In this document: in pieces, positions 35,439 to 63,642 of the stretch
Layout: each line of letters starts with the position of its first letter
Numbering within the stretch: the stretch's first letter is position 1
NCBI GenBank assembly: GCA_964653715.1
Contig: CAZZGX010000027.1
Coordinates: forward strand, 1,836-65,835
DNA: 64,000 nucleotides
Origin: an uncultured Candidatus Saccharibacteria bacterium
Lineage (GTDB): Bacteria > Patescibacteriota > Minisyncoccia > Ryanbacterales > GWA2-47-10b
Reading direction: 5' to 3'
Notes under the pieces: generated by a model
The model's database searches: none
Told to the model about the DNA's origin: nothing
Seen by the model: the letters and a program-made list of their open reading frames with translations, nothing else
Position numbers and translations under genes: made by a program

Positions 35439-35439
35439 G

Positions 35440-47302: not shown

Positions 47303-47353
47303 AGAATAAAAACAATAGTACCATCATAGCGTTATGCGTAAATTAAATAAAGT

Positions 47354-47389
47354 AAAAAAATCCCCCCGCCCGAGGCGGGGGGATTTTTT
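47354..47389. terminator. Strong bidirectional intrinsic terminator (A7-ATCCCCCCGCC-CGA-GGCGGGGGGAT-T6)
   Basis: Perfect 11-bp GC stem with flanking A/T runs, 12 nt downstream of the major pilin stop. Confidence 0.85.
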
Positions 47390-47400
47390 CATCGAAACAT

Positions 47401-47892
47401 TTAACGAGTTATTACAATAGAAGCAGCGTTGCCTACCTCACATGAACCAACAGTGACAGAGTTATTTGCGTTCTTGATTAAGTAATAACCAGTTTTCCCC
47501 GCATTCCATGTACCTGTTTCAGCAGGACTTATTGGTATAGATCCCAAGTGACCTCCTGTCTGCAGAGCTGTTAGATCAACACAATTAGTACCTGCGACGG
47601 GAACGCATGGAAGATTTGAGGCGGCAGTACAAGCAGCGCCAGTATTTGTCCCTATCATATAGTTTGTACCAGCAGTCAGAAGCGTGATTGAAGGAATATA
47701 ATTTCCTCCGTTATCAACCTGATTGACGCGAACCGCGCTCAAAATTGCAGATACATCCGCAAAGCGGCGTGAGTCACGCGCGTCTCGAAAGCGCTTTAAG
47801 GGATCAAGTGCGACAAATACGATCGCCGCGAGAATCGCGATAATGGCGATAACGATTAAAAGTTCAATTAATGTAAATCCTCGTTTTTTCAT
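47401..47892 (-). CDS. Type IV major pilin (prepilin-type N-terminal cleavage/methylation domain)
   Basis: MKKRGFTLIELLIVIAIIAILAAI is the class III signal G/FTLIE. It has its own strong terminator. Confidence 0.9.
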   Translation of the reverse strand: MKKRGFTLIELLIVIAIIAILAAIVFVALDPLKRFRDARDSRRFADVSAILSAVRVNQVDNGGNYIPSITLLTAGTNYMIGTNTGAACTAASNLPCVPVAGTNCVDLTALQTGGHLGSIPISPAETGTWNAGKTGYYLIKNANNSVTVGSCEVGNAASIVITR

Positions 47893-47975: not shown

Positions 47976-49682
47976 TTACTTGATTTTCTCAAGGTATTTC
48001 GCAGCCGCCCAGCCTTCTTTGCCTTCGCTGATCTTAATTTTGAACCAGCCGTTTGACTCGTCCACAAGCATATATTTCTCGCCTGGGTTGACCTTTTGAA
48101 TCAAAGTCCCAGAAACCGATGGTGTCTCGCGCACATTGAGCCAGCCCGTTTCAGTGCTTTTTACAAGAACGTAGGTCCCAGATTGGATCGACTCGTTGTT
48201 ACTAAGAGTAACTTTTCCAACGAGATTCATTACCTTCGGGTCATCTGTTTTCTCAAGAGTCGTGATTTCAATGCTTTCAAGTTGATATTGGATGTGTCGC
48301 GTATTAAGATTTTCTACCATAACCGTGAACAACTGCTTGGCATCGGCATCGGGATAGGCCACCCACACATACGCCTCTTTTGAAGAACTAATCGGCGCAG
48401 GCGCAAGTTTTTCCCCGCTTCGCAATTCTTTTTCCGCCTCAGAAAGAGAAAAAATAATCGCCTCGCTTTCCGAAACGGATTTTTGAGACGTAATTTCAAT
48501 ACTGCGGCCGTGTAAATTTTGATCGGTATAACTTGCGGTTTTAAACGCCAGTGGAATTTTTATATTCAGAATTTCTTTCTTTGAAAATTGCGCGGCTGGT
48601 TGCGACACGATGGTTGCTTGGGGGAGAGGAAAAGTCGGCATTTTTTTTGTGTTCCATCTCAATCCTACTAATAAAAGAAAAACGAGAACACCCATAGCCA
48701 TAACAATATTTTTTCTTGAAAAGTAATTATTCGTGTTTTTTCTCGCGTCGTTCCCAGAAAGGGCGAGGCGCGGCGAATTCATATCCCAAAGGGCCAACGC
48801 CGCTCCGACTGCTTTCATGCACCGCGTTCCACTCGAATAAATACTTACTCCGATCTCGGCAGGAATCGAAAGATTTGTTTCAAAAAAAGACGCTGACCCA
48901 CCGAGACGCGCCAACTCCCCGCCGAGTACAATTTTTTTAATATCATGCCCTGTGGTTTTTTTAAAATAGGAAACGCCGCGAGCAATTTCAGCGGCTATCG
49001 GTTCAAGCGCCTTGATCACGGTGAAAAAGTTTTTGTCGTTTTTACCGCTTAAATTTTCCTTCTCGAGATCAACCTCGCCAATGCCCGGCAGTGCGTATGA
49101 CGAATGAAAAACACCTCGATCAAAAAAAGAAACAAAAACTGCCGTTTTGCCAAGCTCAACGAGCGCCAATGCCAAATCTTCTTTTTGATTGGCAAGACCT
49201 CGGAAGAGTGCCGCGGGCTCTGGATCAAAAAACGCGATTTCAATCCTCAATTTTTGGAAAAATGCCTCCCATTCATTGAGCCACTCCCTGCTTGAAGCGA
49301 TAATGCTGAGACTTGAGCGCGAAAAGACAAGGTCTCTCCGGTCGAGCGGGATATTTTTTTCCGCTTCTTTTCGAAGCGTATCCGTCAAATCTTCACTCTC
49401 TTTTGAAACAAAAAAATGCGAATAGACAAGGTTTTCGGGAAGCGCAAACGTAGCTTTTCTTACCAAAATCGGCCTTGGTTCCGCTTCAAGAAGCGTTTTT
49501 TTGAGAGCGTCAAAAAGCTTTTGTTCGTTCTTGATTCTCCCCTCCTCAACCACGCCCGGCTCGAGCGTCTTTCTGCCAAGATTTTTTATTCTTGGCCTGT
49601 TAAATTGCGCAAGCTCCGCTATTTCTATTGAGTGGTCGTCGATGCTGATGCCAACCGAATGCGAAAAAAATATATTTTTCAT
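47976..49682 (-). CDS. pilM: Type IV pilus assembly protein PilM fused to PilN-like TM segment and C-terminal SH3b domain
   Basis: Actin-like PilM N-domain, mid TM (IVMAMGVLVFLLLVGL), and a C-terminal SH3b-like region (GWLNVRETPSVSGTLIQKVNPGEKYMLVDESNGWFKIK). Confidence 0.75.
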   Translation of the reverse strand: MKNIFFSHSVGISIDDHSIEIAELAQFNRPRIKNLGRKTLEPGVVEEGRIKNEQKLFDALKKTLLEAEPRPILVRKATFALPENLVYSHFFVSKESEDLTDTLRKEAEKNIPLDRRDLVFSRSSLSIIASSREWLNEWEAFFQKLRIEIAFFDPEPAALFRGLANQKEDLALALVELGKTAVFVSFFDRGVFHSSYALPGIGEVDLEKENLSGKNDKNFFTVIKALEPIAAEIARGVSYFKKTTGHDIKKIVLGGELARLGGSASFFETNLSIPAEIGVSIYSSGTRCMKAVGAALALWDMNSPRLALSGNDARKNTNNYFSRKNIVMAMGVLVFLLLVGLRWNTKKMPTFPLPQATIVSQPAAQFSKKEILNIKIPLAFKTASYTDQNLHGRSIEITSQKSVSESEAIIFSLSEAEKELRSGEKLAPAPISSSKEAYVWVAYPDADAKQLFTVMVENLNTRHIQYQLESIEITTLEKTDDPKVMNLVGKVTLSNNESIQSGTYVLVKSTETGWLNVRETPSVSGTLIQKVNPGEKYMLVDESNGWFKIKISEGKEGWAAAKYLEKIK

Positions 49683-49684
49683 TT

Positions 49685-50107
49685 TTAATTGCTTTGTTCA
49701 CTCCAAGATACAATGGATATGACATTATACAGAGCCCCCGACAAAATGACGGCCGCTTGGATTTTTTTGTTGTAGCTCCCGCTTGTTCCCGTAACAGTAA
49801 TGACACGCCCTATGCCAAATGCTGATACTACTTCTATTATACAAGACCCATCGGGAGCTGTGAAACTCATTGGGCCCAGAGTTATCCCATAGAGTGGATC
49901 GATACGGATATGACGATACGTCTCTTCCATACATCCATGCGCAACACCAAGTGCCTTTGCCCCGCCCGCAGCCGATAATCCCATATCGAGCTCTCCGAGC
50001 CCAATGAGTGCCGTGCTGTAAACTTCAAGAAATGTTATTGCCCCTATAAGAATAACGGTAAAAAGCGCCGCGATACCTTTTTGATTTTTATTTTTTAAAG
50101 ATTGCAT
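49685..50107 (-). CDS. PilX-N-like minor pilus protein (no GFxxxE cleavage motif)
   Basis: N-terminus MQSLKNKNQKGIAALFTVILIGAITFL resembles the PilX N-terminal helix. Start moved to ATG 50107 to remove a 125-nt overlap. Confidence 0.5.
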   Translation of the reverse strand: MQSLKNKNQKGIAALFTVILIGAITFLEVYSTALIGLGELDMGLSAAGGAKALGVAHGCMEETYRHIRIDPLYGITLGPMSFTAPDGSCIIEVVSAFGIGRVITVTGTSGSYNKKIQAAVILSGALYNVISIVSWSEQSN

Positions 50108-50108
50108 A

Positions 50109-50618
50109 TTATTGGCGCAGACTGACGGCAGTCTCGAGCGTTTGCGAATACTGATAAATATTGTTTGCGGATGGGTTTTTATACTCAAATGTGGCGACGA
50201 CACGGAGATTGTCTCGTTCTCCCAATTCTGCAAGATTTTTGTAGGAAAGCGCTGTCACGATAACTTCTTTTCCAAGAATTGGTACGGGACTCCCCGCCAA
50301 TTGCGTCATATAGAACATCCCTCCCGCAACGCTGAATGTAATATCTGGATCAGCCCCGGGCATATCGAGCAATAATGGAAAAATCACGCCGTCGAGAGCG
50401 TTCCCTTTCGTAGGACTTGTGATGAGGCGCGCACCTCGGACTTTTTGAGTCAAAATATCAAACGCTAGGCGCGCGTTTGACTCAACTTCTTCTATCGCGT
50501 GCGCTTTAGCGCGATTTGCGGAAATAGAAATCCCAAACATTACAAATCCCGTTACGATAAGGCCGATGACGGCCACGTAGATAAGAGTTTCTATAAATGT
50601 AAATCCTTTTTTCTTCAT
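50109..50618 (-). CDS. Prepilin-type pseudopilin (minor pilin)
   Basis: MKKKGFTFIETLIYVAVIGLIV from ATG 50618. Confidence 0.8.
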   Translation of the reverse strand: MKKKGFTFIETLIYVAVIGLIVTGFVMFGISISANRAKAHAIEEVESNARLAFDILTQKVRGARLITSPTKGNALDGVIFPLLLDMPGADPDITFSVAGGMFYMTQLAGSPVPILGKEVIVTALSYKNLAELGERDNLRVVATFEYKNPSANNIYQYSQTLETAVSLRQ

Positions 50619-50619
50619 C

Positions 50620-53600
50620 CTATTTATAATTAACTCTAACTTCCTTGAGTACCGGCGAGCTCGCGCCGTCTCCACTTAAAAATACTTTGTACTCGACCCA
50701 TCGATTGCCATTGAGCGCGGTCGGCACCAAAGAAGCATTTCTAGCGGTAAAATATGTTCCGGCCCCGCCGGCCCCGTACCACGGTGTCCAAACGCCCGGC
50801 AAACCTGATACATCGGGTGCCGTCCGCAATTGAAATTGAACTGAACACGCGGGAACACATACGGGGATTGATTCATCCCACTCAATAATCTGGACTGGCG
50901 AGGGATCGGACATATTAAAATTTGAAGATGTGAGGAAGCCGCTCCCCACATAGGCGCTTCGCCGCAAAATAACTCCCTGCGCGCCGACAATCCACCCCAC
51001 ACTTTGATTGACCATTTTGACCGCGTTGAGCACGGTGGATACAGGCGACGAGTATACCTGCCACGTTGAGCCGTCCCAATGAAGAATGGTCCCGCCAGCG
51101 CCGACAATCCATCCGTCAGTTGCGGATACCATGTACACGCTATTGAGTGTCGCCGATGTTGGGGATAGAACCGATTGCCACGCGCAGATTGGGGCACAAA
51201 TATAGCGATAAATTCTTCCATTCCCGCCGACAATCCATCCGTCAGTTGCGGATACCATGTACACGCTGTTCCACGCTTGCGTGGAAATCGTTTGAGATGA
51301 CCACGAAGAACCATTCCAATGGAGCACTACCCCGTTATTCCCTACGGCCCAACCGTCACTCGCAGAAATCATGTATATGCTATTGAGTCCCGAACTAGTC
51401 GGAGATGAAACCGCTTGCCACGCGCCACCCGTTTGCCACCCGCCTCCAGTAAAATGCCGGATATTGCCTCCCAAACCCACAACCCACGCATTATCAGGAG
51501 CAAGCGCAAAGAGCGATCGCCACGCGGCAGAACCCTGCTGCAAACTTACGGCGGTAGTACCGTCCCAATGAAAAATTTTTCCCCCGCTTGCCGCAATCCA
51601 GCCATCATTTGCGGAAACCATGGAAATACTATTGAGATCGTTGGTGCTGATATTTGTGGCAAGCGTCCATCCAAAACCATCAAAATGCAGAATGTCTCCG
51701 TTGTTCGTAACGGCCCAAATATTATCCTGCGTGACAATGGAAAGATCGTTGATCGATTGTGTTGTTACAGGATTATATAGAATTGTAATATCCTGAAACT
51801 GTGGTGACACGCTGCCAACGGTGCCACGAGTAAAAGTGACACGGTACTGAAAATATCGGCGAGCGGGCGAACTAATGCTTGAGTTTATATTGTTCGTTTG
51901 TTCAGCTGAAAACGATGACCAGCTTGCATCGGGCGCGGGCGTATTGCCGGTTCTTGTAGAAACTGTCATGGTAGTGCCCACTGGTACCGCTTGAGACCAA
52001 TACATGAGAGCCCAGGTTGTGAGAGGATTGCCGCCATCGAAAATTCTGGAAAAGAGTGTTCCCACGCTCACGTATGATATATCGTAATACGCGATACGCC
52101 CAGAACTTCCAAGAGTCCAGCCGTGCGTTGCATCTTGCATTGTGACTGCATTCCAGCTCATGCCCCCTAAATCAGTAACCTCGGACCACGCGCTTCCCGA
52201 ATAGCGATAGAGTTTTCCGGTTGATCCCGCAATCCAGCCGCTGCTCGGTGATAGCATAAAAACATCATTTAAATTGGTACTCCCCGCAAAACTGCTTACC
52301 GTTTGCCACAAAGTTCCATTATAATGCCGGGCAATGCCATTGTTACCTACAACCCAGCCATCGCTCGCGGAAATCATAAATACCGAATTCCACGCTTCAT
52401 TGCCGGTATCAATTGATTTACTGCCGGTCCAATTGAGCTCATCCCAATGAAGAATTTTACCCGCGAGCCCTACCGCCCACCCATCACTAGATGAAACCAT
52501 ATAGATACTTTTCAAATCTTTGGTTCCAGCGGGCACTGCGTATGCGCCTGACCATGCCGTTCCGTTCCAACGTTTGATTGAGCCATTAGCGCCTACAATC
52601 CAAACATTATCTGCGGCAAGAACAAATACATCATTCCATGTCACGCTATCGCCGGTGCTCAAGAGCGTCCAAGTTGAACCATTCCATCTGTAAGTTCTCC
52701 CACCCGATCCAACCGCCCAACCATCGGTAGTTGTCCGCATATCAATCCCGCGGAGATTTACTGTGGCGCCTAAATTTGCGCTGACTGCCCAATTTGTTCC
52801 ATTGTACCGAAGCACCTGACCGGCATCGGTTACCGCCCAGACATCGCTGGGTCCAATCGCGTCCACATCGGTAATATTTTGAGTAGTCGCAACCGCGCTC
52901 GCCGCGTGCTCTGCCCACTGTTGCGCCTGTGCAAGCGCTACGCTTGCTCCAGCTCCCGTGCCATTTACCGCGGTACCGGACAAAGATCCCGCGTTAAAAT
53001 CAGAATCAGTAGTGTCGAAAAAACTATTTGCGTATGCAGGAACCCAGACACCGTTTGGCAACGCGCGAAGCGTAATTTGTCCTGGGGTTGTAGAGTTGTC
53101 AATATTCCCGTCGTCGCTGTTGTATTGTGTTGCGTTCGACCAGTTTGTCTGCCCCGCGCCTCCCGACCAATCAGTCTGGGTCCATTCACGAGAATCCCAA
53201 TTTGTAAGATACTCATTACGGTCAACATAACTAGAATTTCCCCACGACACGCGCACGCGGACATATTTTGAATGAATATCTTTGTAATTACCGCCAGTAG
53301 GGGGACAAGAAGCGATATTCCCAGCAGGATCGCGACATACCTCATCAAATTGGATGGTCCGCGTATATTTGCCGTTGATCAACTGCGATAACCCGGAAGT
53401 GAGCACCCAGCGATTGCCAACTTCCGAGACAACGGCCGGGCTCGGCACAATCTCATTCCACGCACCATCGCGTACCGAACGAACCGCCTCCATCCCCTCC
53501 TCGGCAAAATGGAACGCTTCTGTTTCTTCGCCTCCTTTGAGAAGTGCTGAAAAATTGCCCGCAGCTAGTGAGGCGATCGAAACCGAGAGAAGCAGGAAAA

Positions 53601-53661
53601 TCGCCATAGCGATAAGAATCTCCATGAGCGATTGGCCTTTTTTATAATCAAGCCGCTTCAT
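50620..53661 (-). CDS. Giant (1013 aa) pseudopilin with about 14 Ycf48/BNR-like beta-propeller blade repeats
   Basis: N-terminus MKRLDYKKGQSLMEILIAMAIFLL (G-x4-E prepilin motif), followed by about 14 repeats of the form (S/T)xxDGW(A/I)VG..G.I..W.G..W. Confidence 0.8.
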   Translation of the reverse strand: MKRLDYKKGQSLMEILIAMAIFLLLSVSIASLAAGNFSALLKGGEETEAFHFAEEGMEAVRSVRDGAWNEIVPSPAVVSEVGNRWVLTSGLSQLINGKYTRTIQFDEVCRDPAGNIASCPPTGGNYKDIHSKYVRVRVSWGNSSYVDRNEYLTNWDSREWTQTDWSGGAGQTNWSNATQYNSDDGNIDNSTTPGQITLRALPNGVWVPAYANSFFDTTDSDFNAGSLSGTAVNGTGAGASVALAQAQQWAEHAASAVATTQNITDVDAIGPSDVWAVTDAGQVLRYNGTNWAVSANLGATVNLRGIDMRTTTDGWAVGSGGRTYRWNGSTWTLLSTGDSVTWNDVFVLAADNVWIVGANGSIKRWNGTAWSGAYAVPAGTKDLKSIYMVSSSDGWAVGLAGKILHWDELNWTGSKSIDTGNEAWNSVFMISASDGWVVGNNGIARHYNGTLWQTVSSFAGSTNLNDVFMLSPSSGWIAGSTGKLYRYSGSAWSEVTDLGGMSWNAVTMQDATHGWTLGSSGRIAYYDISYVSVGTLFSRIFDGGNPLTTWALMYWSQAVPVGTTMTVSTRTGNTPAPDASWSSFSAEQTNNINSSISSPARRYFQYRVTFTRGTVGSVSPQFQDITILYNPVTTQSINDLSIVTQDNIWAVTNNGDILHFDGFGWTLATNISTNDLNSISMVSANDGWIAASGGKIFHWDGTTAVSLQQGSAAWRSLFALAPDNAWVVGLGGNIRHFTGGGWQTGGAWQAVSSPTSSGLNSIYMISASDGWAVGNNGVVLHWNGSSWSSQTISTQAWNSVYMVSATDGWIVGGNGRIYRYICAPICAWQSVLSPTSATLNSVYMVSATDGWIVGAGGTILHWDGSTWQVYSSPVSTVLNAVKMVNQSVGWIVGAQGVILRRSAYVGSGFLTSSNFNMSDPSPVQIIEWDESIPVCVPACSVQFQLRTAPDVSGLPGVWTPWYGAGGAGTYFTARNASLVPTALNGNRWVEYKVFLSGDGASSPVLKEVRVNYK

Positions 53662-54141
53662 CTATTGAATTTGAACAACCCCAAGAACGTTGACGCTGAC
53701 GGCAAGCGTGCCCCCCGTAGAATGCGCGAGTGTCACAAGACCTGCCGCCTGCGGCACGCCGAGACCCTTTGAAAAATAAACATCGCCCAGAGAAAAATTT
53801 GAACTTTGGGTTAGGGCCGAAGGCAAAACGGTTATCTGATCAATACTTGGGTCACGATTGGCAAAAGCAGGACTCGCGCTTGGCGATCCCCACAACGTAA
53901 AACGATTTGTATCAAAATGGACGCCGTATGTCATTCCTCCCGCGCGCGCGGCCGAACGCTCGCGCGCCTGTCTAAGAGTTGCCGCCAACTGATCGGCATA
54001 TTCGTCGAGTTGGGCGCCCCGATAAACATTGCTATAAAGTGGGGTCGCTAAAACCGCGAGTAAAAGGGTGATCGCGAGAACAATAACAAACTCAAAAGCG
54101 GTAAACCCTTTTTTAGCGCTGGATATTGCCCGTAAGCTCAT
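53662..54141 (-). CDS. Prepilin-type pseudopilin (minor pilin)
   Basis: MSLRAISSAKKGFTAFEFVIVLAITLLLA from ATG 54141, overlapping the pilC 3' end by 29 nt. Confidence 0.7.
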   Translation of the reverse strand: MSLRAISSAKKGFTAFEFVIVLAITLLLAVLATPLYSNVYRGAQLDEYADQLAATLRQARERSAARAGGMTYGVHFDTNRFTLWGSPSASPAFANRDPSIDQITVLPSALTQSSNFSLGDVYFSKGLGVPQAAGLVTLAHSTGGTLAVSVNVLGVVQIQ

Positions 54142-55198
54142 AGATGGGCGTAATGATGGCGAGCGCGAATATGACAACTATAATACCTATAATAAGCAAA
54201 AGCATGGGTTCTATAATAGTAGAAAGTGATTTTGCGGTCGTATCGACTCCTTCCTCATAAAAATTAGCAAGATATAAAAGTGTCTCCTCAAAGCGCCCGG
54301 ACTCTTCCCCAACCTGCACCATGCGCGTAACTATTTTAGGAAAAAGTTTTTTGTGCGACTCGAGACTTTCGGCAAGTTTTCCTCCTTTACTGATGTGTAC
54401 CGACACGTCTTCAAGGGCGCGGCGATAATAAAAATTGCCGGTGCTTGAAGCGGTAATATCGAGCGCCTCATCGATATTGATTCCACTTTTAAGCAGCGTC
54501 CCCAGTGTTCTTGAAAAACGCGCGAGATTCGCGCCCATCACAAGGCGCTTGATAAGAGGCGTGTGCAAAAAAATCCAATGGGTCACGGGCTTTATAAAAT
54601 TTTGACGGATAAGCCATACAAAGAAAAAAATAAAAAATACGAGACCAAGAAGCAGCCAAACGCCATCATTTTGAATAAGGTGCGCGAACCAAATAAGAGC
54701 GCGCGTGCTCATTGGTAAGTCTATCTTAAGTCCCTCAAAAAGAGGTATGATCTTTGGAAGCACAACAAAGGACATAAAAATACCGAGGATAAATGTGGCA
54801 ACAAGAATGAACCCGGGATACACCAAGGCGCCTGTCACTTTTGCCGTAAGCTCTTTTTCCTTTTCAAGCTCTTGGGCAACGCTCTCAAGATTTTCGGCGA
54901 GCTGCCCCGAGGCCTCCCCTGCACGCACCGATTCCGTAAAAAGGCCCGAAAATACTCGAGGATAATCTGAAAATGACGAGGAAAGGGAACGCCCCGTCTC
55001 AACCGCTTTGAGGACTCCTCCGAGCGTCGGCTTCAGTCTGCCTTCAGCCGCGTCTGCCGCGATTGAAAGCGCCTCAATGATTGTAAGACCAGACCGCAAC
55101 ATCACTGCCAAGTGCTTGGCAAGCAATGCTCGTTGGGTAAGGCTTACCCCACCAAAAGAAATAGAACGATTTAATTTTTTTACGCTACTTGTTTTCAT
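54113..55198 (-). CDS. pilC: Type IV pilus platform protein PilC (GspF family)
   Basis: Two T2SSF repeats and three TM helices. 361 aa. Confidence 0.85.
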   Translation of the reverse strand: MKTSSVKKLNRSISFGGVSLTQRALLAKHLAVMLRSGLTIIEALSIAADAAEGRLKPTLGGVLKAVETGRSLSSSFSDYPRVFSGLFTESVRAGEASGQLAENLESVAQELEKEKELTAKVTGALVYPGFILVATFILGIFMSFVVLPKIIPLFEGLKIDLPMSTRALIWFAHLIQNDGVWLLLGLVFFIFFFVWLIRQNFIKPVTHWIFLHTPLIKRLVMGANLARFSRTLGTLLKSGINIDEALDITASSTGNFYYRRALEDVSVHISKGGKLAESLESHKKLFPKIVTRMVQVGEESGRFEETLLYLANFYEEGVDTTAKSLSTIIEPMLLLIIGIIVVIFALAIITPIYELTGNIQR

Positions 55199-55581
55199 TT
55201 TTTTCGCTTTGCCAAATGCGTCCGAACCAGCTCCGGCAATTTATTTATTGAAAAATCGGTTTTAACAAGATAGTCGGCGGCACCCAGTTCAAGCCCTGTT
55301 TTGATGTCCGACTCTTGCCCGAGATTAGTGAGAATAATAACCGGAATATGTTTTGTTTCTTTATTAAGCTTAATCTCACTTAAAATATCAAAACCGTTTT
55401 TTTGCGGCAAAATAATATCAAGGAGCACCAAATCCGGTTTCTCCTGCACTACCTTCCCAAGCCCTTCCTCACCTGAAATCGCCATACTGACTTCAAATCC
55501 TTCGCGCTTGAGCTTATCGCTATAGAGCTTTAGAAGAAACTTGTCGTCCTCGATAATAAGAATGTTTTTTTTGTCGTCCAT
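55195..55581 (-). CDS. Single-domain response regulator (CheY-like receiver)
   Basis: ILIIEDDKFLLKLY...LVLLDIILPQKNG has the phospho-acceptor Asp context. 128 aa with no output domain. Confidence 0.85.
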   Translation of the reverse strand: MDDKKNILIIEDDKFLLKLYSDKLKREGFEVSMAISGEEGLGKVVQEKPDLVLLDIILPQKNGFDILSEIKLNKETKHIPVIILTNLGQESDIKTGLELGAADYLVKTDFSINKLPELVRTHLAKRKK

Positions 55582-55584
55582 TGT

Positions 55585-56304
55585 TTAACGCAAGGGTAAT
55601 GTGAAATAAAAAGTGGTTCCTTTCTCTGGCACACTCTCAAACCATATAGTGCCGCCGCTTGCCATAATGATCGCCTTCGAAATGAAAAGCCCGAGCCCCG
55701 AGCCTTCGGCGGCGAGCGCTACCACGCGCGGACTCCGATAAAATTTACTGAATATTTTCTTGCGGTCTGTGGTCGTGATGCCAACACCGCTATCGGCACA
55801 GGCAAAAAGGACCTCTTTTGTATTTTTTGTAACGGCAACCTTAATATTTCCCTTTCCTTTATTATAGCGTATTGCGTTGTAAATAATATTGGTCACGACT
55901 TCTTGGATTTTAGTTGCATCTATCGAAATAAGAGCCACGGGGGAAGGCACATCCAGCGAAATAGTGGTGTTTTTGGCGCTGGCAAACGCGGTAAGATCTT
56001 TAATCACAGTTCGTACGATCTCAACAAAATCAGAAGGACTTTTTTCAAGCGTCATGCGGCTCTCGTCAATCCGAGAAGCATCAAGCAAATTTTTGACAAG
56101 CTGAATCATCTTATCCGTGCCTCCATAGGCTAGGCGCAAATATTCTTCCTGTTCGGGAGAAAGTTTTCCCAAATCGCCGGAAAGAAGCACCTCTATCGAA
56201 GACTTTATGCCCGCGAGCGGAGTTTTCAATTGATGCGCGATAACCGACGTAACTTCGGTAATTCTTTTTTCGCTTTTAAGTGAAAGTGTTTTTTTTGATC
56301 TCAT
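55585..56304 (-). CDS. Sensor-less histidine kinase (DHp + HATPase_c only)
   Basis: H-box IAHQLKTPLAGI and N/G1/G2 boxes (NAIRYN, DSGVGI, GSGLGL). No TM or sensor domain. 239 aa. Confidence 0.85.
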   Translation of the reverse strand: MRSKKTLSLKSEKRITEVTSVIAHQLKTPLAGIKSSIEVLLSGDLGKLSPEQEEYLRLAYGGTDKMIQLVKNLLDASRIDESRMTLEKSPSDFVEIVRTVIKDLTAFASAKNTTISLDVPSPVALISIDATKIQEVVTNIIYNAIRYNKGKGNIKVAVTKNTKEVLFACADSGVGITTTDRKKIFSKFYRSPRVVALAAEGSGLGLFISKAIIMASGGTIWFESVPEKGTTFYFTLPLR

Positions 56305-56306
56305 TG

Positions 56307-58094
56307 TTATTCTTTAGTGGCGCGGATAACTTCTTCAAGCGTGGTAATGCCTACAATAACTTTCTGAATCCCGTCCTCGAGCATCGTGGTCATGCCGCTA
56401 CTCTCTGCCACTTTCATAATTTCGATAGAGGCCGCCCGTTTGGTAATTAAATCTTTAATTTCATCGTTCATCAAAAGCACTTCAAAAATTCCAACCCGCC
56501 CGAGGTATCCCGTGCTAGAGCAAACAGGACATCCCCCGCCCTTGTAAAAACGAATTTTCGCAAACGACGATTTATTCTTTATCTTTAAAAGCTTTTTTAA
56601 GTGCGGGTCCTCTTCGATCATTGCCTTTTCCTCCGGAAGAAGTTTATACGAGACGCGGCACTTCTCACAAATGCGGCGCACGAGTCGCTGGGCGATGATA
56701 CAATTGACGGTTGAGGCCACAAGAAATGGCTCGACCTTCATATCCAAAAGGCGCGGCAGAGTGGTCGCCGCGTCATTTGCGTGGAGCGTTGAGAGGACGA
56801 GGTGGCCGGTCATGGCTGAGTTTACGGCGATATCAGCGGTTTCCTCATCGCGGATCTCGCCGACCATAATCATGTCCGGGTCCTGCCGGACGATCGCGCG
56901 AAGTCCTTTTGCGAACGTCAGATTGGTTCTTGAGTTTACCTGAATTTGGCTGACTCCTTCAATTTCATATTCAACAGGATCCTCAATGGTTGAGATATGA
57001 ACGTCGCGGGTGTTTAAAATTTTGAGCATGCCGTAGACCGTCGTCGTCTTCCCGGATCCCGTAGGGCCTGTTACAAGAATCATCCCGTGCGGATTGTCGA
57101 TCGAGCGGCGGACTTTTTTAAAATCAGCCTCACCCAACCCCAAATCCGTAAGGCCAAATTGCCGGCTCCGAGCCGAGAGGATACGCATGACGACATTTTC
57201 GCCTTCGGTCACCGGCACAATGGAAATACGAACGTCCACTTTTTCATCATCGGCCTCAAAAGCAAGCTTACCATCCTGTGCCGCGCGGTGCTCGTCAGTA
57301 CGCATTTTCGATAATATTTTTATGCGCGTCAAAATCAAATCCATGAGCGCTTTGGGCACGTCAAGAACATCGTGCATAACGCCGTCAACTCGAAAGCGAA
57401 CCATTACCTTGCCGGGGTGCGGCTCCACATGAATATCGGATGCCTTTGAATCATATCCGTAGTGGAGCAGCATATCGACAACCTCAACGATAGTCTCGTC
57501 GCGCTCCTCTTTTGAAAGAAGAGTGTCGTTGAGCTTGCCAAGAATTTTTTTAAATTCATCGTGAATATTGGCTTTGTAGCGCGCGAGTACATCATCAAAA
57601 CTCCGGCGTGTCATGTAAAACGGCATGACTTTAGCGCCGAGCCGTTTTTCAAGAAGATGCGTTGCCTCAAAATCATCGGGATCGCGCATGCCTACCTTGA
57701 CGCCCGCACCCCTGCGCGAGAAGGCAACCACACCGCGCGCGCGCGCAACTGCTTCGGGAATTTCGTGAAGTAGCGCCTCATCAATTTTTTCTTCCTTAAG
57801 ATCGACGAAGGAAACTCCCAGCTCCTCTGCTATGATCTTACCTAGCTGGTCGTCATTGATAAGGTCCTTATCAATCAAAAGCTCGTCGAGTGCTTTCCCC
57901 TGCTCACCTGCTTCTTTTTTGGCAAGCTCAAAATCCGCCTCCGAGACAAGACCGGGCTTTACCAGCAACTCCTTTATTTTTTCATCGGTAAGGTCCACAG
58001 CTAAATTTAATTGTATTATAACTGAAAGCGGTAGATGGAGACAGTGCTTTGTTTTAAAGTATATATTGGTGGTCTTTGGAGGGATCAATGACAA
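56307..58094 (-). CDS. pilB: Type IV pilus assembly ATPase PilB (GspE family)
   Basis: N-terminal GSPII_E_N domain, Walker A GPTGSGKTTT, and a tetra-Cys motif (CEKC...CPVC). 595 aa. The N-terminus overlaps the divergent XRE gene; the true start may be the downstream GTG at 57998. Confidence 0.9.
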   Translation of the reverse strand: MSLIPPKTTNIYFKTKHCLHLPLSVIIQLNLAVDLTDEKIKELLVKPGLVSEADFELAKKEAGEQGKALDELLIDKDLINDDQLGKIIAEELGVSFVDLKEEKIDEALLHEIPEAVARARGVVAFSRRGAGVKVGMRDPDDFEATHLLEKRLGAKVMPFYMTRRSFDDVLARYKANIHDEFKKILGKLNDTLLSKEERDETIVEVVDMLLHYGYDSKASDIHVEPHPGKVMVRFRVDGVMHDVLDVPKALMDLILTRIKILSKMRTDEHRAAQDGKLAFEADDEKVDVRISIVPVTEGENVVMRILSARSRQFGLTDLGLGEADFKKVRRSIDNPHGMILVTGPTGSGKTTTVYGMLKILNTRDVHISTIEDPVEYEIEGVSQIQVNSRTNLTFAKGLRAIVRQDPDMIMVGEIRDEETADIAVNSAMTGHLVLSTLHANDAATTLPRLLDMKVEPFLVASTVNCIIAQRLVRRICEKCRVSYKLLPEEKAMIEEDPHLKKLLKIKNKSSFAKIRFYKGGGCPVCSSTGYLGRVGIFEVLLMNDEIKDLITKRAASIEIMKVAESSGMTTMLEDGIQKVIVGITTLEEVIRATKE

Positions 58095-60874: not shown

Positions 60875-62092
60875 ATGAATACCACCAAGGTAGTACAAGA
60901 ACTTGCCCAAGGACCAACACTTTCCATTATCGCGCTTATTGACGCCCTCATAGAAGAAGCGCACGGCCTCCGCGCATCGGACATTCATATTGACCCCAAT
61001 GAAAAAGAAGTTAAAGTGCGCGTGCGCATCGACGGTGTACTGCAAGACACCTATTCCATTCCTAAAGAAATCCAATCTGAAGTTATAACGAGAATTAAAG
61101 TCCTCTCTGGACTCCGCACGGACGAGCACCAAGCGCCGCAGGACGGGCGTTTTAGAATCGTACTTGCAGAGCAAAGTCCAATTGATATTCGCGTATCCAT
61201 CGCGCCTTCTTATTACGGAGAAAATGCGGTTTTGCGTCTTCTTTCCGAACGATCAGAAAAATTCGCGCTTGAGATGCTTGGCTTCAGCGAAGAAAACCAA
61301 GAAAAAATCGCGCGCGCCATCAGAAACCCATATGGAATGATACTGGCAACGGGACCAACGGGATCAGGCAAAACCACGACGCTCTACACCATTTTAAAAC
61401 AGCTCAATACAAAAGAGGTTTCCATTATAACGATCGAAGATCCGATAGAATACGCGCTCGACGGAATCAACCAGATGCAGGTCAACGCGCGGAGCGGTCT
61501 CACGTTTGCAAACGGCCTTCGCTCTATTTTGCGTCAAGACCCTGACATCATCATGGTTGGCGAAATCCGCGATTCCGAAACCGCCGGGCTTGCGGTAAAC
61601 ACGGCGCTCACCGGTCACCTCGTTCTATCCACACTTCACACAAACGACGCGGCAACCACACTCCCCCGCATGCTTGATCTGGGTCTCGAGCCGTATCTCA
61701 TCACTGCCACGGTAAATCTAGTTATTGGCCAGCGACTTGTCAGAAAAATATGTAGAGAGTGCAAAAAAGAGCACGAACTTACGCCTGCGGAACAAAAAAG
61801 TCTCGCAACAACAAAAAATATCCCGGCCTCGTTTAGTCAAATGCGCTCGGTGTGGCGAGGAGCTGGCTGTGAAGCATGCAACGGCAGTGGCTATAGAGGA
61901 CGCCTCGGCATTTATGAGATCATCGAGGTCAACGACGAGCTCAGAAACGCCATGCTCGAGCGATGCTCGTCTGAAAATATAAAAAAAGTTGCGATCCAAC
62001 ATGGCATGAGAAGCATGGTCGAGGACGGTTTTAAAAAAGTATTCAGAGGTCTCACCACCTTCGAAGAAGTTCTCCGCGTCATCCATGAATAA
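60875..62092 (+). CDS. GspE/PilB-family secretion ATPase, short form (second copy)
   Basis: Walker A GPTGSGKTTT, Asp/His boxes, and a tetra-Cys motif (CRECKKEH...CEACNGSG) that marks GspE/PilB rather than PilT. 405 aa. Confidence 0.85.
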   Translation: MNTTKVVQELAQGPTLSIIALIDALIEEAHGLRASDIHIDPNEKEVKVRVRIDGVLQDTYSIPKEIQSEVITRIKVLSGLRTDEHQAPQDGRFRIVLAEQSPIDIRVSIAPSYYGENAVLRLLSERSEKFALEMLGFSEENQEKIARAIRNPYGMILATGPTGSGKTTTLYTILKQLNTKEVSIITIEDPIEYALDGINQMQVNARSGLTFANGLRSILRQDPDIIMVGEIRDSETAGLAVNTALTGHLVLSTLHTNDAATTLPRMLDLGLEPYLITATVNLVIGQRLVRKICRECKKEHELTPAEQKSLATTKNIPASFSQMRSVWRGAGCEACNGSGYRGRLGIYEIIEVNDELRNAMLERCSSENIKKVAIQHGMRSMVEDGFKKVFRGLTTFEEVLRVIHE

Positions 62093-63173
62093 GCCAAAAC
62101 TCTCCGCAATGTCTCTTTCTCTCTTCCGCACCCGTCTGTCGCTTCGGGATCAGGCGCTTTTTGCCAAACGCCTTTCGCTCCTCTCACGTGCAGGCGTAAC
62201 GCTGCTTGAATCGATCAACATCATGAACCGCCAGAGTAAGGGCGCTAGAAAAAAAATGTATGAGGAGATTGAGAATGATTTAGCAAACGGACAATATTTA
62301 TCAAAAAGTCTCGCGCGACACCACCATAGCTTTGGCAACTTTGCCATAAATATTATTCGAGTCGGCGAGACAACTGGCACGCTTTCAGATAATTTGCTCT
62401 ACCTCTCGGAAGAAATCGACAAAAAAAGAGAATTGCGAGGAAAAGTCATCGGCGCCCTTATCTACCCGATCATTATCATGGTATCAGCGCTCGCAATTGC
62501 CGGATTTTTAACGATTTACCTTTTTCCAAAACTTATGCCGGTGTTTCAAAGCTTAAACGTAAAGTTACCAATAACGACGCGAGCGCTCATCTGGATAAGC
62601 ACATTTCTCATCGCCTACGGGCCTTGGATAATCGCCGGCCTCGTGGTGGGATTGATCGCGCTTTTCATTGCGTTGCGGGATGAACGTGTTCGGTTCATTT
62701 TTGATCATTTTCTTTTAAAAATTCCTGTCATGGGCGATGTACTTCAGCACTATCATATCAGCAACACCTGCCGCACCATGGGGCTCCTATTAAAAAGCAA
62801 CGTGCGCGTCTTGGAATCTGTTACGGTGGCAGCAGAAACTTCAAGCAATTTGCCCTATAGATACGCGCTCGCGCACCTTAAGACCGCAATCACCAAAGGG
62901 TCAAATATCGCGAAACAACTCGAGAAAAAACCGGGTCTTTTCCCCATCATGCTCACCGAGATGATCGCAATCGGAGAGAAAACCGGTAATCTGTCCGAGA
63001 CGTTTCTCTATTTATCTGGAATCTACGAACAGGAACTTGATGAAAAAACTAAACGACTTTCCTCAACTATTGAACCCGCCATGATGCTGGGAATGGGACT
63101 GCTTGTCGGCTTTATCGCAGTCTCCATCATCACGCCTATTTATGAGGTTACGCAACACTTGCAACCAAGGTAG
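62085..63173 (+). CDS. GspF/PilC-family platform protein (second copy)
   Basis: Two T2SSF repeats and three TMs, translationally coupled to the upstream ATPase (8-nt overlap). Confidence 0.85.
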   Translation: MNKPKLSAMSLSLFRTRLSLRDQALFAKRLSLLSRAGVTLLESINIMNRQSKGARKKMYEEIENDLANGQYLSKSLARHHHSFGNFAINIIRVGETTGTLSDNLLYLSEEIDKKRELRGKVIGALIYPIIIMVSALAIAGFLTIYLFPKLMPVFQSLNVKLPITTRALIWISTFLIAYGPWIIAGLVVGLIALFIALRDERVRFIFDHFLLKIPVMGDVLQHYHISNTCRTMGLLLKSNVRVLESVTVAAETSSNLPYRYALAHLKTAITKGSNIAKQLEKKPGLFPIMLTEMIAIGEKTGNLSETFLYLSGIYEQELDEKTKRLSSTIEPAMMLGMGLLVGFIAVSIITPIYEVTQHLQPR

Positions 63174-63642
63174 GGAAAAAAGCAGCGCGGGAATTACCGT
63201 GACTGAAATTATGCTCGTCTTAGGCATTATGTCCATCGTGTCCGGATTTTCGCTCTTTGCCAACATGGATAGTTACCGTGGATACGCGTTTCGAGGAACC
63301 CGGGACATGTTGGTGGCAGTTTTACAAAAAGCCAGAAGCCAAAGTATTAACAACATGTGTTTTGGAAGCGCGTGTACTGACGGCAAACCACACGGAGTGC
63401 ATTTTACCCCCGGCCAATACGTCATTTTCCAAGGTGCAAGCTGGGCCGCGCGCGACGCCGCACTTGATGAAATTGTAAAAATTGAGAGCGCGAATGTGCA
63501 AGTAAGCGGGCCCGATATTGTTTTCGCGCAACTCTCAGGAAACGCGAGCCCAGCGGGAGGCGTCATCACCGTGGTCGATGATGCAAGCCACTCTTCAGTA
63601 ATCTCAGTTAATGGAGAGGGCCAGATACTTTGGACAAATTAA
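63142..63642 (+). CDS. Prepilin-like protein (atypical long leader, G-ITVTE motif)
   Basis: …KSSAGITVTEIMLVLGIMSIVSGF has G then E at +5. The only in-frame ATG upstream is at 63142, a 17-aa leader overlapping pilC2. Confidence 0.5.
   Translation: MRLRNTCNQGREKSSAGITVTEIMLVLGIMSIVSGFSLFANMDSYRGYAFRGTRDMLVAVLQKARSQSINNMCFGSACTDGKPHGVHFTPGQYVIFQGASWAARDAALDEIVKIESANVQVSGPDIVFAQLSGNASPAGGVITVVDDASHSSVISVNGEGQILWTN

What the first reader, a model, noticed from the sequence alone, without database searches (positions are those of the whole stretch)
50620..53661. Giant pseudopilin carrying two beta-propellers' worth of Ycf48/BNR-like blades
A class III prepilin leader and hydrophobic helix are fused to about 14 tandem blade repeats (…DGWAVG..G.I..W.G..W…). 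This implies a propeller-bearing subunit at the pilus tip or shaft, a plausible host- or substrate-binding adhesin. It is co-encoded with three ordinary pseudopilins, a PilX-like protein, pilM-N-SH3b, pilC and pilB.
Basis: seen in the sequence. Interest (0 to 1): 0.6.

Follow-up and report, generated by a model that had tools for sequence, protein, structure and literature searches.

The report
Giant pilus-tip pilin with two propellers
An ultrasmall (Patescibacteria) bacterium encodes a 1013-residue type IV minor pilin whose pilin anchor carries two seven-bladed propellers, and it is one version of a widespread family in which different binding modules occupy the same slot, so it is a good candidate for how these bacteria grab their hosts.

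Summary

It is the second of four minor pilins in a tightly packed ten-gene operon: pilB-HK-RR-pilC-mpH-GIANT-mpW-mpX-pilMN/SH3b-major pilin. That order recurs in nearly all of the 80 best related loci, out of 439 found in species-representative genomes.

Across the family the pilin module, a "WxQTDWSGGxGQ" stalk motif and the C-terminal sandwich are conserved. The middle varies: no propeller, one, two or three propellers, ConA-like lectin domains, or unknown modules.

Best reading: a tip-presented modular minor pilin acting as a host- or substrate-binding adhesin. Binding function and tip location are inferred, not shown.

Modular pilins and a propeller-bearing pilin in Saccharibacteria (PilX2) are already described. 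This is therefore a new variant of a known kind, of moderate interest.

The parts
53635..53661 (-). Class III (prepilin) leader peptide, residues 1-9 (MKRLDYKKG), ending in Gly-1. The ATG directly abuts the stop codon of the upstream pilin gene.
53464..53634 (-). Mature N-terminus and alpha1 helix, residues 10-66. Gln+1, Glu+5 (E14), then a hydrophobic stretch.
   Evidence: helix 12/13-66, pLDDT up to 97 in the N-terminal model; N_methyl
53182..53463 (-). Pilin head, residues 67-160. Antiparallel beta-sheet with nearly invariant Cys109/Cys119. GspI/GspK-like fold.
52879..53181 (-). Conserved stalk motif (NWDSxxWxQTDWSGGxGQxxWS...SDDGNID...G...L, about residues 155-200) plus linker strands to residue 261. 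Modelled with lower confidence.
   Evidence: not homologous to the sandwiches
52066..52878 (-). Propeller 1, residues 262-532. Seven Ycf48-like blades with the Trp of each DGWxVG motif at 275, 315, 354, 395, 436, 476, 515.
51757..52065 (-). Beta-sandwich 1, residues 533-635 (...RYFQYRVTFTRG...SPQFQDITILYN).
   Evidence: S1 against S2: hhalign probability 99.5%, E 8e-23
50950..51756 (-). Propeller 2, residues 636-904. Seven Ycf48-like blades with the motif Trp at 649, 688, 726, 771, 809, 851, 890.
   Evidence: Ycf48 5ojp, E 1e-18 over the whole propeller
50623..50949 (-). Beta-sandwich 2, residues 905-1013. This is the family-wide conserved C-terminal domain ending in VRVNYK. The stop codon is at 50620-50622.
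   Evidence: (2887 representative clusters, mostly at the extreme C-terminus)
53662..54177 (-). Upstream minor pilin mpH. Weakly GspH/FimU-like, with G|FTAFE. Probable start is Met13 at 54141.
50109..50618 (-). Downstream minor pilin mpW, 169 aa from MKKKG|FTFIE. Its start lies 1 nt after the giant gene's stop.
49685..50107 (-). Small pilin-like protein mpX, 140 aa, with KG|IAALF and no Glu+5. GspK/PilX-like by position only.
47976..49682 (-). PilM fused to a transmembrane (PilN-like) segment and a C-terminal SH3b domain.
47401..47892 (-). Major pilin candidate, 163 aa, MKKRG|FTLIE. It is followed by a strong intrinsic-terminator-like hairpin at 47391-47353.
54113..55198 (-). PilC platform protein (T2SSF).
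55195..56304 (-). Receiver-only response regulator (55195-55581) and a histidine kinase with no membrane sensor (55585-56304), embedded in the operon.
56307..58094 (-). PilB extension ATPase (MshEN + T2SSE domains).

Best explanation
The gene encodes a modular type IV minor pilin.

Inferred mechanism, in order:
1. A prepilin peptidase removes the nine-residue leader after Gly9.
2. The hydrophobic alpha1 helix and the GspI-like head dock with the three neighbouring minor pilins (mpH, mpW, mpX). Together they form the priming complex that ends up at the tip of the pilus built from the 163-aa major pilin.
3. Because the pilin module is at the tip, the ~750-residue C-terminal cargo projects beyond the filament. 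The cargo is two rigid [seven-bladed Ycf48-type propeller + beta-sandwich] units.
4. The cargo acts as the ligand-binding end of the pilus. The most likely ligand is a surface glycan or protein of a host cell or substrate.

Family picture. This protein is one variant of a Patescibacteria-wide family. The pilin module, the stalk motif and the last beta-sandwich are kept, while the middle module is exchanged or multiplied (0-3 propellers, ConA-like lectins, others). That pattern is what one expects of a specificity-determining adhesin.

Shown: signal motif, pilin fold, propeller folds, domain duplication, operon and synteny, cargo variability.
Inferred: cleavage by a prepilin peptidase, tip location, binding function and ligand.
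For: - Signal: G-1/E+5 in this protein and conserved in homologues.
- Propellers: 14 blades against 0 in shuffles. AF2 mean pLDDT 85.8. Foldseek matches double seven-bladed propellers at E as low as 5e-22. Ycf48 structures match at E 1e-18.
- Unit duplication: 35% identity, E 1e-60; sandwich 1 against sandwich 2 at probability 99.5%.
- Operon: ten genes with gaps or overlaps of 0-29 nt, apart from an 83-nt gap before the major pilin gene, ending in a strong terminator-like hairpin.
- Synteny: pilB-pilC-mpH-GIANT-mpW-mpX-pilMN-major in nearly all of the 80 best loci, out of 439 relatives in species-representative genomes.
- Cargo variation among those 80 loci: no blades in 51, about 7 in 10, 13-15 in 7, and 16 or more in 7; the remaining loci have intermediate counts, several on truncated contigs. 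ConA-like lectin cargo occurs in 12 of 50 non-propeller members.
- Conservation: propellers are less conserved (35-39% identity) than the sandwiches and the stalk motif (47-53%).
- Precedents: modular pilins act as adhesins (PMC8179133, PMC9934059). The propeller-bearing minor pilin PilX2 of TM7x is needed for efficient host binding (PMC11623550).
Against: - No prepilin peptidase gene was found in the window ORFs scanned, so processing is assumed.
- Curated pilin models are at or below threshold on the full protein: N_methyl 19.6 against 21.2 bits, TIGR02532 13.9 against 16.3.
- No ligand, binding site or catalytic motif could be identified. Model coordinates and PAE were not available, so inter-domain packing is unknown.
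- The most conserved part of the cargo is the terminal sandwich, not the propellers. The sandwich could therefore be the functional element.
- The host and lifestyle of this organism are unknown.
Confidence: 0.62

Rival explanations
1. The conserved C-terminal beta-sandwich is the working part. It could bind a conserved ligand or dock back on the tip complex. On this view the propeller-sandwich units are rigid spacers whose number (1-3) sets how far that domain is held from the filament.
For: The C-terminal domain and the stalk motif are kept in every cargo variant and are the best conserved regions, at 47-53% against 35-39% for the propellers. The domain forms a large family and is usually at the extreme C-terminus. 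The copy number of the unit varies among orthologues.
Against: The slot also holds recognisable binding modules such as ConA-like lectins, which are not spacers. In adhesins and phage receptor-binding proteins the conserved parts are usually structural and the variable parts bind, which is general knowledge rather than a test made here. The domain has no Pfam or PDB sequence relative, so nothing supports a specific ligand.
Confidence: 0.13
2. The pilus is mainly a DNA- or nutrient-uptake (competence-type) filament, and the propellers capture DNA or another macromolecule at the tip rather than binding a host cell.
Against: No DNA-binding motif or domain was detected. Paralogous cargo is lectin-like. 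In TM7x the pilus that carries the propeller pilin did not affect competence (PMC11623550). No ComEC or ComEA gene is in the operon.
Confidence: 0.08
3. The prepilin-type N-terminus serves only as a membrane anchor or export signal. The protein then stays at the cell surface or is released, and is never polymerised into a pilus.
For: The same propellers occur in non-pilin surface proteins with Sec signals, SLH domains or C-terminal anchors. The same sandwich domain occurs in Sec-signal giants. The size, about 107 kDa, is unusual for a filament subunit.
Against: Glu+5 and a complete pilin head are conserved. The gene keeps a fixed place between the other minor pilins in nearly all of the 80 loci examined. 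Larger non-pilin tip proteins (PilY1) and modular pilins are known to travel with pili (PMC8179133).
Confidence: 0.1
4. The tandem propellers form an enzyme, for example a GH74- or sialidase-like glycosidase, delivered by the pilus to remodel the host envelope.
For: Tandem seven-bladed propellers with Asp-box-like repeats are the architecture of GH74 enzymes (own knowledge). A few paralogues hit trans-sialidase C-terminal or 3-keto-disaccharide hydrolase models.
Against: No glycoside-hydrolase family was hit by Pfam or NCBIfam. No hydrolase appears among the top 50 Foldseek matches. The two propellers are separated by a 105-aa sandwich rather than forming a contiguous cleft. The nearest relative, Ycf48, is not an enzyme.
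Confidence: 0.04

Closest known systems
Modular type IV pilins: S. sanguinis PilB (vWA module) and PilC (ConA-like lectin module) (PMC8179133, PMC9934059)
   Same: A canonical class III signal and a small pilin module are followed by a bulky non-pilin module. They are minor pilins of a monoderm T4P and have an adhesin role. The global survey in PMC8179133 lists many CPR examples. Its Dataset S1 lists one 'IPR012902 - IPR028203' (pilin + Ycf48-like) architecture.
   Different: The cargo here is two Ycf48-type propellers, each with a beta-sandwich, about 750 aa in all. The carrier is GspI-like. The family also has a conserved C-terminal domain that frames an exchangeable slot. None of this has experimental data.
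PilX2 of Nanosynbacter lyticus TM7x (Saccharibacteria) (PMC11623550)
   Same: A Patescibacteria minor pilin with a C-terminal seven-bladed propeller. It is proposed as the tip adhesin, and its deletion about halves host binding.
   Different: PilX2 has one RCC1-type propeller and no predicted PilD signal. This protein has two Ycf48-type propellers plus sandwiches and a canonical G-1/E+5 signal. No RCC1 hit was found. Homology of the pilin modules was not tested.
PilY1/PilC tip adhesins of diderm T4aP
   Same: A large protein (over 100 kDa) with a seven-bladed propeller, presented at the pilus tip by the minor-pilin complex.
   Different: PilY1 is not a pilin. It has a Sec signal and docks through its propeller. 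Its propeller family (IPR008707) is not detected here. Here the propellers are covalently fused to a pilin.
GspI/XcpV/EpsI (and PilV) core minor (pseudo)pilins
Ycf48/HCF136 photosystem II assembly factor (PF14870; PDB 2xbg, 5ojp)
   Same: Each propeller aligns over the whole seven-bladed Ycf48 fold (E 1e-18). Pfam PSII_BNR is above its gathering score.
   Different: It falls far below the NCBIfam equivalog cut-off, 51 against 326 bits. The lineage is non-photosynthetic. The context is extracellular and pilus-linked, and the domain is duplicated in tandem.
CofB (ETEC T4bP) and ComZ (Thermus): large tip minor pilins (described in PMC8179133; ComZ from own knowledge)
   Same: A pilin module carries extra beta-rich domains at the pilus tip that mediate binding.
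   Different: The extra domains differ (beta-repeat plus beta-sandwich in CofB; a beta-solenoid inserted in the pilin head in ComZ). Neither has propellers or a variable cargo slot.

Membership tests
Type IV pilin / pseudopilin (class III signal peptide proteins) | Short basic leader ending in Gly, then about 20 hydrophobic residues with Glu at +5 | tested here: met
   MKRLDYKKG|QSLMEILIAMAIFLLL.... The motif is conserved in homologues.
Type IV pilin / pseudopilin (class III signal peptide proteins) | Match to curated N-terminal methylation models at their cut-offs (PF07963, TIGR02532) | tested here: inconclusive
   PF07963 scores 19.6 bits on the full protein and 22.2 bits on residues 1-200, against a cut-off of 21.2. 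TIGR02532 scores 13.9 against 16.3. 23 of 25 family N-termini match PF07963.
Type IV pilin / pseudopilin (class III signal peptide proteins) | Lollipop fold: long alpha1 helix packed on an antiparallel beta-sheet | tested here: met
Type IV pilin / pseudopilin (class III signal peptide proteins) | Encoded with type IV filament machinery (PilB, PilC, PilM and other pilins) | tested here: met
   The order is conserved in nearly all of the 80 loci examined.
Type IV pilin / pseudopilin (class III signal peptide proteins) | Cleavage and N-methylation by a prepilin peptidase, and incorporation into the filament | not testable with these tools
   No Peptidase_A24 gene was found among the window ORFs scanned. 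The rest of the genome was not available.
GspI/PilV-class core minor pilin (tip complex) | Structural similarity of the head domain to GspI-type pseudopilins | tested here: met
GspI/PilV-class core minor pilin (tip complex) | Sequence membership (TIGR01707 gspI or PilV models) | tested here: not met
   No gspI or PilV model hit this protein in NCBIfam or Pfam. Only a weak ComGE match was found (E 0.017, below cut-off).
GspI/PilV-class core minor pilin (tip complex) | Forms a complex with J- and K-type minor pilins at the filament tip | not testable with these tools
   Only gene order (mpH-GIANT-mpW-mpX) and the lack of Glu+5 in mpX and its orthologues point this way. mpW and mpX match no J or K model.
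Ycf48/HCF136 family (PF14870 PSII_BNR) | Pfam domain above the gathering score, aligning over the seven-bladed fold | tested here: met
   52.5 bits against 27. The family profile matches Ycf48 structures at E 1e-18, profile positions 627-893 against chain residues 31-320.
Ycf48/HCF136 family (PF14870 PSII_BNR) | Orthology to the photosystem II assembly factor (NCBIfam equivalog PRK13684; photosynthetic organism) | tested here: not met
   51.2 bits against a cut-off of 326. The organism is a Patescibacterium, with DnaK closest to Ca. Ryanbacteria. The context is a pilus operon.
BNR/Asp-box repeat proteins (PF02012) | Canonical S-x-D-x-G-x-T-W Asp-box in the blades | tested here: not met
   No PF02012 hit at E up to 0.1. 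The blade motif is DGWxVGxxGxIxx[WY]NGxxW.
PilY1/PilC tip adhesins | PilY1-type C-terminal propeller domain (Neisseria_PilC / IPR008707) on a non-pilin protein | tested here: not met
   No such Pfam hit. The protein is itself a pilin.
Modular pilins (sensu Raynaud et al. 2021) | An N-terminal pilin module plus at least one domain that is not specific to type IV filament biology | tested here: met
   Pilin module 1-160 plus two Ycf48-like propellers. The architecture IPR012902-IPR028203 is listed once in their Dataset S1.
TM7x PilX2-like propeller pilins | RCC1-repeat heptabladed propeller; sequence homology to PilX2 | tested here: inconclusive
   No RCC1 family hit, so the propeller type differs. 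Homology of the pilin modules was not tested because the PilX2 sequence was not at hand.

The most novel reading that the evidence does not exclude
The gene is one instance of a Patescibacteria-wide 'cargo slot' in the GspI-like tip pilin. A conserved pilin module plus WxQTDWSGG stalk on one side, and a conserved C-terminal sandwich on the other, frame a position in which binding modules are swapped and multiplied. The modules include one to three Ycf48-type propeller-sandwich units, ConA-like lectins and unknown domains. On this reading the cargo is the main determinant of which host or surface each ultrasmall episymbiont can attach to. The number of propeller units would tune reach or avidity. 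The terminal sandwich would be a previously undescribed cap domain needed for assembly of the tip.
Probability: 0.35. Interest if true: 0.7.

Novelty: new variant of a known kind. Interest (0 to 1): 0.45.

Why it matters
How Patescibacteria (CPR), which make up a large share of bacterial diversity, recognise and attach to their hosts is largely unknown outside a few cultured Saccharibacteria.

This locus shows a conserved operon position filled by a large, highly variable tip pilin. Relatives were found at 439 places in species-representative genomes. That gives a concrete, sequence-readable candidate for the host-specificity determinant in uncultured lineages such as Ryan-, Uhr-, Magasanik-, Falkow-, Buchanan- and Komeilibacteria.

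If the cargo type correlates with host or habitat, it could be used to predict partners from metagenomes. It could also provide binding domains for fishing out hosts.

For pilus biology, it is an example of cargo carried on the GspI-type subunit rather than on a GspK/PilX-type pilin or a separate PilY1 protein.

Tried and rejected
1. Foldseek against afdb50 was not available, so no AlphaFold-database neighbours were obtained.
2. Profiles of the N-terminal module and of the C-terminal domain gave no significant PDB sequence hits. The C-terminal domain has no Pfam family.
3. Residues 155-261 as a third, degenerate copy of the beta-sandwich: rejected. hhalign probability was below 1% against both sandwiches, while the two sandwiches match each other at 99.5%.
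4. Assigning mpW and mpX to the GspJ/PilW and GspK/PilX families by Pfam on five plus five orthologues: only N_methyl hits, or none.
5. Looking up the source record of the public copy (P0001): not on record. The lineage was inferred from DnaK instead.
6. Recent duplication or assembly artefact: rejected. DNA repeats are only 60-86% identical over 28-77 nt, and more than 30 orthologue clusters have the same ~1000-aa length.
7. Prepilin peptidase in the window: not found among the ORFs scanned.
8. Enzyme reading (GH74 or sialidase): no supporting hit.
9. Inter-domain packing, for example the C-terminal sandwich against the pilin head, could not be examined because model coordinates and PAE are not exposed.
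Full report
THE OBSERVATION

The window carries one uninterrupted ORF at 50620..53661 on the minus strand, 1013 codons plus a stop.

The N-terminus reads MKRLDYKKG|QSLMEILIAMAIFLLLSVSIASLAAG. That is a nine-residue basic leader ending in Gly, with Glu at +5 of the presumed mature protein and about 25 hydrophobic residues. This is the class III (prepilin) signal.

The motif is not a chance feature of one sequence.
- Most of the pilin-type homologues retrieved have G|[QF][ST][LI]xE in the same register.
- Pfam N_methyl matches 23 of 25 N-terminal modules of the family.
- For this protein the curated models sit at the threshold. PF07963 scores 19.6 bits on the full length and 22.2 bits on residues 1-200, against a cut-off of 21.2. 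TIGR02532 scores 13.9 against 16.3.

The ATG at 53661 directly abuts the TAG of the upstream pilin gene. The only public copy of the protein (P0001, 1001 aa) was called from Met13 and so lacks the signal.

REPEATS AND FOLD

- Fourteen units of about 40 residues (xLNxVxMVSxxDGWxVGxxGxIxx[WY]NGxxW) lie at 262-532 and 636-904.
- An HMM built from them finds 14 copies in the protein and none in 20 shuffles. Mean pairwise blade identity is 31%.

The AlphaFold2 model used 34 aligned homologues and has mean pLDDT 85.8 and pTM 0.64. It gives these elements:
- a 54-residue alpha1 helix (13-66);
- a beta-sheet head (76-162);
- a less confident stalk and linker (160-261);
- two blocks of seven four-stranded blades;
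- a ~105-residue beta-sandwich after each block (533-635 and 905-1013).

Foldseek against the PDB returns double seven-bladed propellers: 2ymu at E 4.6e-22, the BT4663 periplasmic sensor at 2e-18, Aip1, and PorZ.

At sequence level each propeller is a full-length relative of Ycf48.
- Pfam PSII_BNR scores 52.5 bits against a gathering score of 27.
- The family profile hits Ycf48 crystal structures at E 1e-18 over chain residues 31-320.
- It is far below the Ycf48 equivalog cut-off, 51 against 326 bits.
- The canonical BNR/Asp-box model does not hit.

The two halves, 255-636 and 637-1013, align end to end at 35% identity, E 1e-60. The two sandwiches are homologous (hhalign probability 99.5%, E 8e-23). 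The repeated unit is therefore [propeller + sandwich]. DNA-level repeats are old, 60-86% identical over 28-77 nt, so this is not an assembly artefact.

THE PILIN MODULE

Residues 1-200 were modelled alone (mean pLDDT 81.7; 85-97 over most of residues 11-150).
- These are followed by Thermus competence pilins and S. sanguinis PilA.
- Foldseek also ranks EpsI first, but not significantly (E 0.11).
- A profile of the module finds ordinary-sized (145-215 aa) Patescibacteria pilins, one of which JGI names PilV.
- Cys109 and Cys119 are nearly invariant.

The module has Glu+5. The fourth gene of the minor-pilin block (mpX) and its orthologues do not. Together with the gene order, this fits an H-I-J-K-like set in which the giant protein takes the GspI/PilV place. 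That is a fold-class and synteny argument. Sequence models for gspI, gspJ, gspK, PilW and PilX do not hit.

CONTEXT

The gene is the sixth of ten tightly packed minus-strand genes. Gaps or overlaps are 0-29 nt, apart from an 83-nt gap before the last gene.

| Gene | Coordinates |
|---|---|
| pilB | 56307-58094 |
| histidine kinase | 55585-56304 |
| receiver-only regulator | 55195-55581 |
| pilC | 54113-55198 |
| mpH (weakly GspH-like) | 53662-54177 |
| giant pilin | 50620-53661 |
| mpW | 50109-50618 |
| mpX | 49685-50107 |
| PilM-PilN-SH3b fusion | 47976-49682 |
| 163-aa major pilin | 47401-47892 |

The last gene is followed by an 18-bp-stem terminator-like hairpin.

The rest of the window is housekeeping: mraY-murD-ftsW-murG, tRNA synthetases, dnaK/dnaJ, rpoA and ribosomal proteins. 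DnaK is closest to Candidatus Ryanbacteria at 77-83% identity. The source is therefore a Patescibacterium. No prepilin peptidase gene was found in the ORFs scanned.

THE FAMILY

The protein search found 290 relatives, almost all from Patescibacteria. Their lengths cluster near 585, 1000 and 1400 aa, corresponding to one, two and three propeller-sandwich units.

A second group shares only two parts at 45-50% identity:
- the first ~200 residues, which include a strongly conserved stalk motif NWDSxxWxQTDWSGGxGQxxWSDxxxYxSDDGNID;
- the last ~110 residues.

In between, these proteins carry other modules.

In one-genome-per-species contigs, 439 loci encode a relative. In nearly all of the 80 best, the order is (HK-RR)-pilB-pilC-mpH-GIANT-mpW-mpX-pilMN-major pilin. 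The blade count in the large pilin is as follows.

| Blades in the large pilin | Number of loci |
|---|---|
| 0 | 51 |
| about 7 | 10 |
| 13-15 | 7 |
| 16 or more | 7 |
| intermediate counts (several on truncated contigs) | the remainder |

Among 50 non-propeller members, the recognisable cargo is mostly ConA-like lectin folds. Laminin_G_3 occurs in 12, Laminin_G_2 in 6 and pentaxin in 3. Cadherin-like, DUF4082 and DUF5643 domains also occur.

The C-terminal sandwich defines a large family.
- It has 2887 representative clusters at E up to 1e-3, and 214 at 1e-30.
- It lies mostly at the extreme C-terminus of proteins of 122-4520 aa.
- At least 66 of the top 136 carry a prepilin motif.
- It has no Pfam family and no PDB sequence relative.

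Within the two-propeller orthologues, the propellers are the least conserved parts (35-39% identity) and the sandwiches and stalk motif the most conserved (47-53%).

HOW IT MOST LIKELY WORKS

Shown:
- a processable-looking prepilin signal;
- a pilin fold of the tip-pseudopilin class;
- two Ycf48-type propellers, each with a sandwich;
- a fixed place among the minor pilins of a conserved T4P operon;
- a variable cargo framed by conserved ends.

Inferred steps:
1. A prepilin peptidase cleaves after Gly9.
2. The pilin module joins mpH, mpW and mpX in the priming complex.
3. That complex becomes the pilus tip.
4. The ~750-residue cargo projects from the tip and binds a ligand on a host cell or substrate.

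The inference rests on three lines of evidence.
- Established knowledge of the GspH-I-J-K and FimU-PilVWX tip complexes.
- Modular-pilin adhesins of S. sanguinis (PMC8179133, PMC9934059).
- TM7x PilX2, a minor pilin with a C-terminal heptabladed propeller. Its deletion roughly halves host binding without abolishing the filament (PMC11623550).

Lectin-fold cargo in the same slot of paralogues points to glycan or surface-protein binding. I put this model at about 0.6.

The rivals are:
- the conserved terminal sandwich is the working element and the propellers are spacers (about 0.13);
- the protein is surface-anchored and is not incorporated into pili (about 0.1);
- it is a DNA- or nutrient-capture tip (about 0.08);
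- it is a pilus-delivered glycosidase (about 0.04).

COMPARISON WITH WHAT IS KNOWN, AND NOVELTY

The kind is known. Modular pilins are widespread, with over 1200 proteins and 264 architectures, many in CPR phyla (PMC8179133). The supplementary list of that paper includes a single 'pilin + Ycf48-like' architecture. A propeller-bearing minor pilin has been studied in Saccharibacteria (PMC11623550).

I found no description of the following in the literature searched:
- the tandem [Ycf48-propeller + sandwich] arrangement and its 1-3 copy variation;
- the GspI-like carrier;
- the conserved stalk motif and C-terminal domain framing an exchangeable slot;
- the strict synteny across many Patescibacteria lineages.

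It fails membership of Ycf48 orthologues, of PilY1 and of canonical BNR proteins. It meets the definition of a modular pilin. I rate it a new variant of a known kind.

A specialist would not be very surprised by one more large CPR pilin. The family-level picture is the useful part, because it gives a testable handle on host recognition in uncultured Patescibacteria. Interest 0.45.

LIMITS

- There are no experimental data.
- The afdb50 library was unavailable.
- The prepilin peptidase, the organism's host and the ligand are all unknown.

Noticed in passing
window 47976-49682 (-): PilM, a transmembrane PilN-like segment and a C-terminal SH3b (peptidoglycan-binding type) domain are fused in one 568-aa protein. 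Long pilMN ORFs (350-890 aa) occur at the same place in most related loci.
   Followed up: partly
window 55195-56304 (-): A sensor-less histidine kinase (239 aa) and a receiver-only response regulator (128 aa) sit between pilB and pilC. The same order occurs in Ryanbacteria-like loci (L010, L012, L017, L019, L025, L031). In other lineages the pair lies upstream of pilB.
   Followed up: partly
window 60875-63642 (+): A second type-4-filament locus begins here. It has a 405-aa T2SSE ATPase without the MshEN N-domain but with a CxxC...CxxC motif, a second PilC-like platform protein (62085-63173), and a pseudopilin with G|ITVTE (63103-63642). The locus runs towards the window end.
   Followed up: no
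window 53625-53661 (-); public protein P0001: The public gene call for this protein starts at Met13 (1001 aa). It therefore omits the leader peptide and the first four residues of the mature pilin, which hides the prepilin signal from automatic annotation.
   Followed up: yes
proteins P0197, P0221, P0237, P0307, P0315, P0317, P0324: Sec-signal proteins of 1.1-4.5 kaa carry several internal copies of the same beta-sandwich domain. Their mature N-termini begin with 'F.Q[TN][DN]WSGG', the same motif as the pilin family's stalk (WxQTDWSGGxGQ). The motif and the sandwich therefore seem to travel together outside pilins too.
   Followed up: no
alignment A4 (non-propeller family members; e.g. P0079, P0085, P0088): Many non-propeller cargo variants share one or more copies of a ~90-aa domain with no Pfam match. 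It contains a canonical Asp-box (TAxKNGGEIYYQLSxDxGxTWxYWNG...FKAFLxSDGxQxVxLD). They also have Cys-rich 'CSGTPTxCxxY...CxxQxGCxW' linkers.
   Followed up: no
window 34125-36585 (-): Two adjacent ORFs (437 and 381 aa) have no confident family. The first has only sub-threshold GlxA beta-barrel and Baseplate_J-like hits (E about 1e-4 to 1e-3) and an N-terminal membrane anchor.
   Followed up: no
window 47353-47391 (-): A very strong terminator-like hairpin (18-bp stem, 9 G-C pairs, T-run) lies immediately after the major pilin gene and marks the end of the ten-gene pilus operon.
   Followed up: yes
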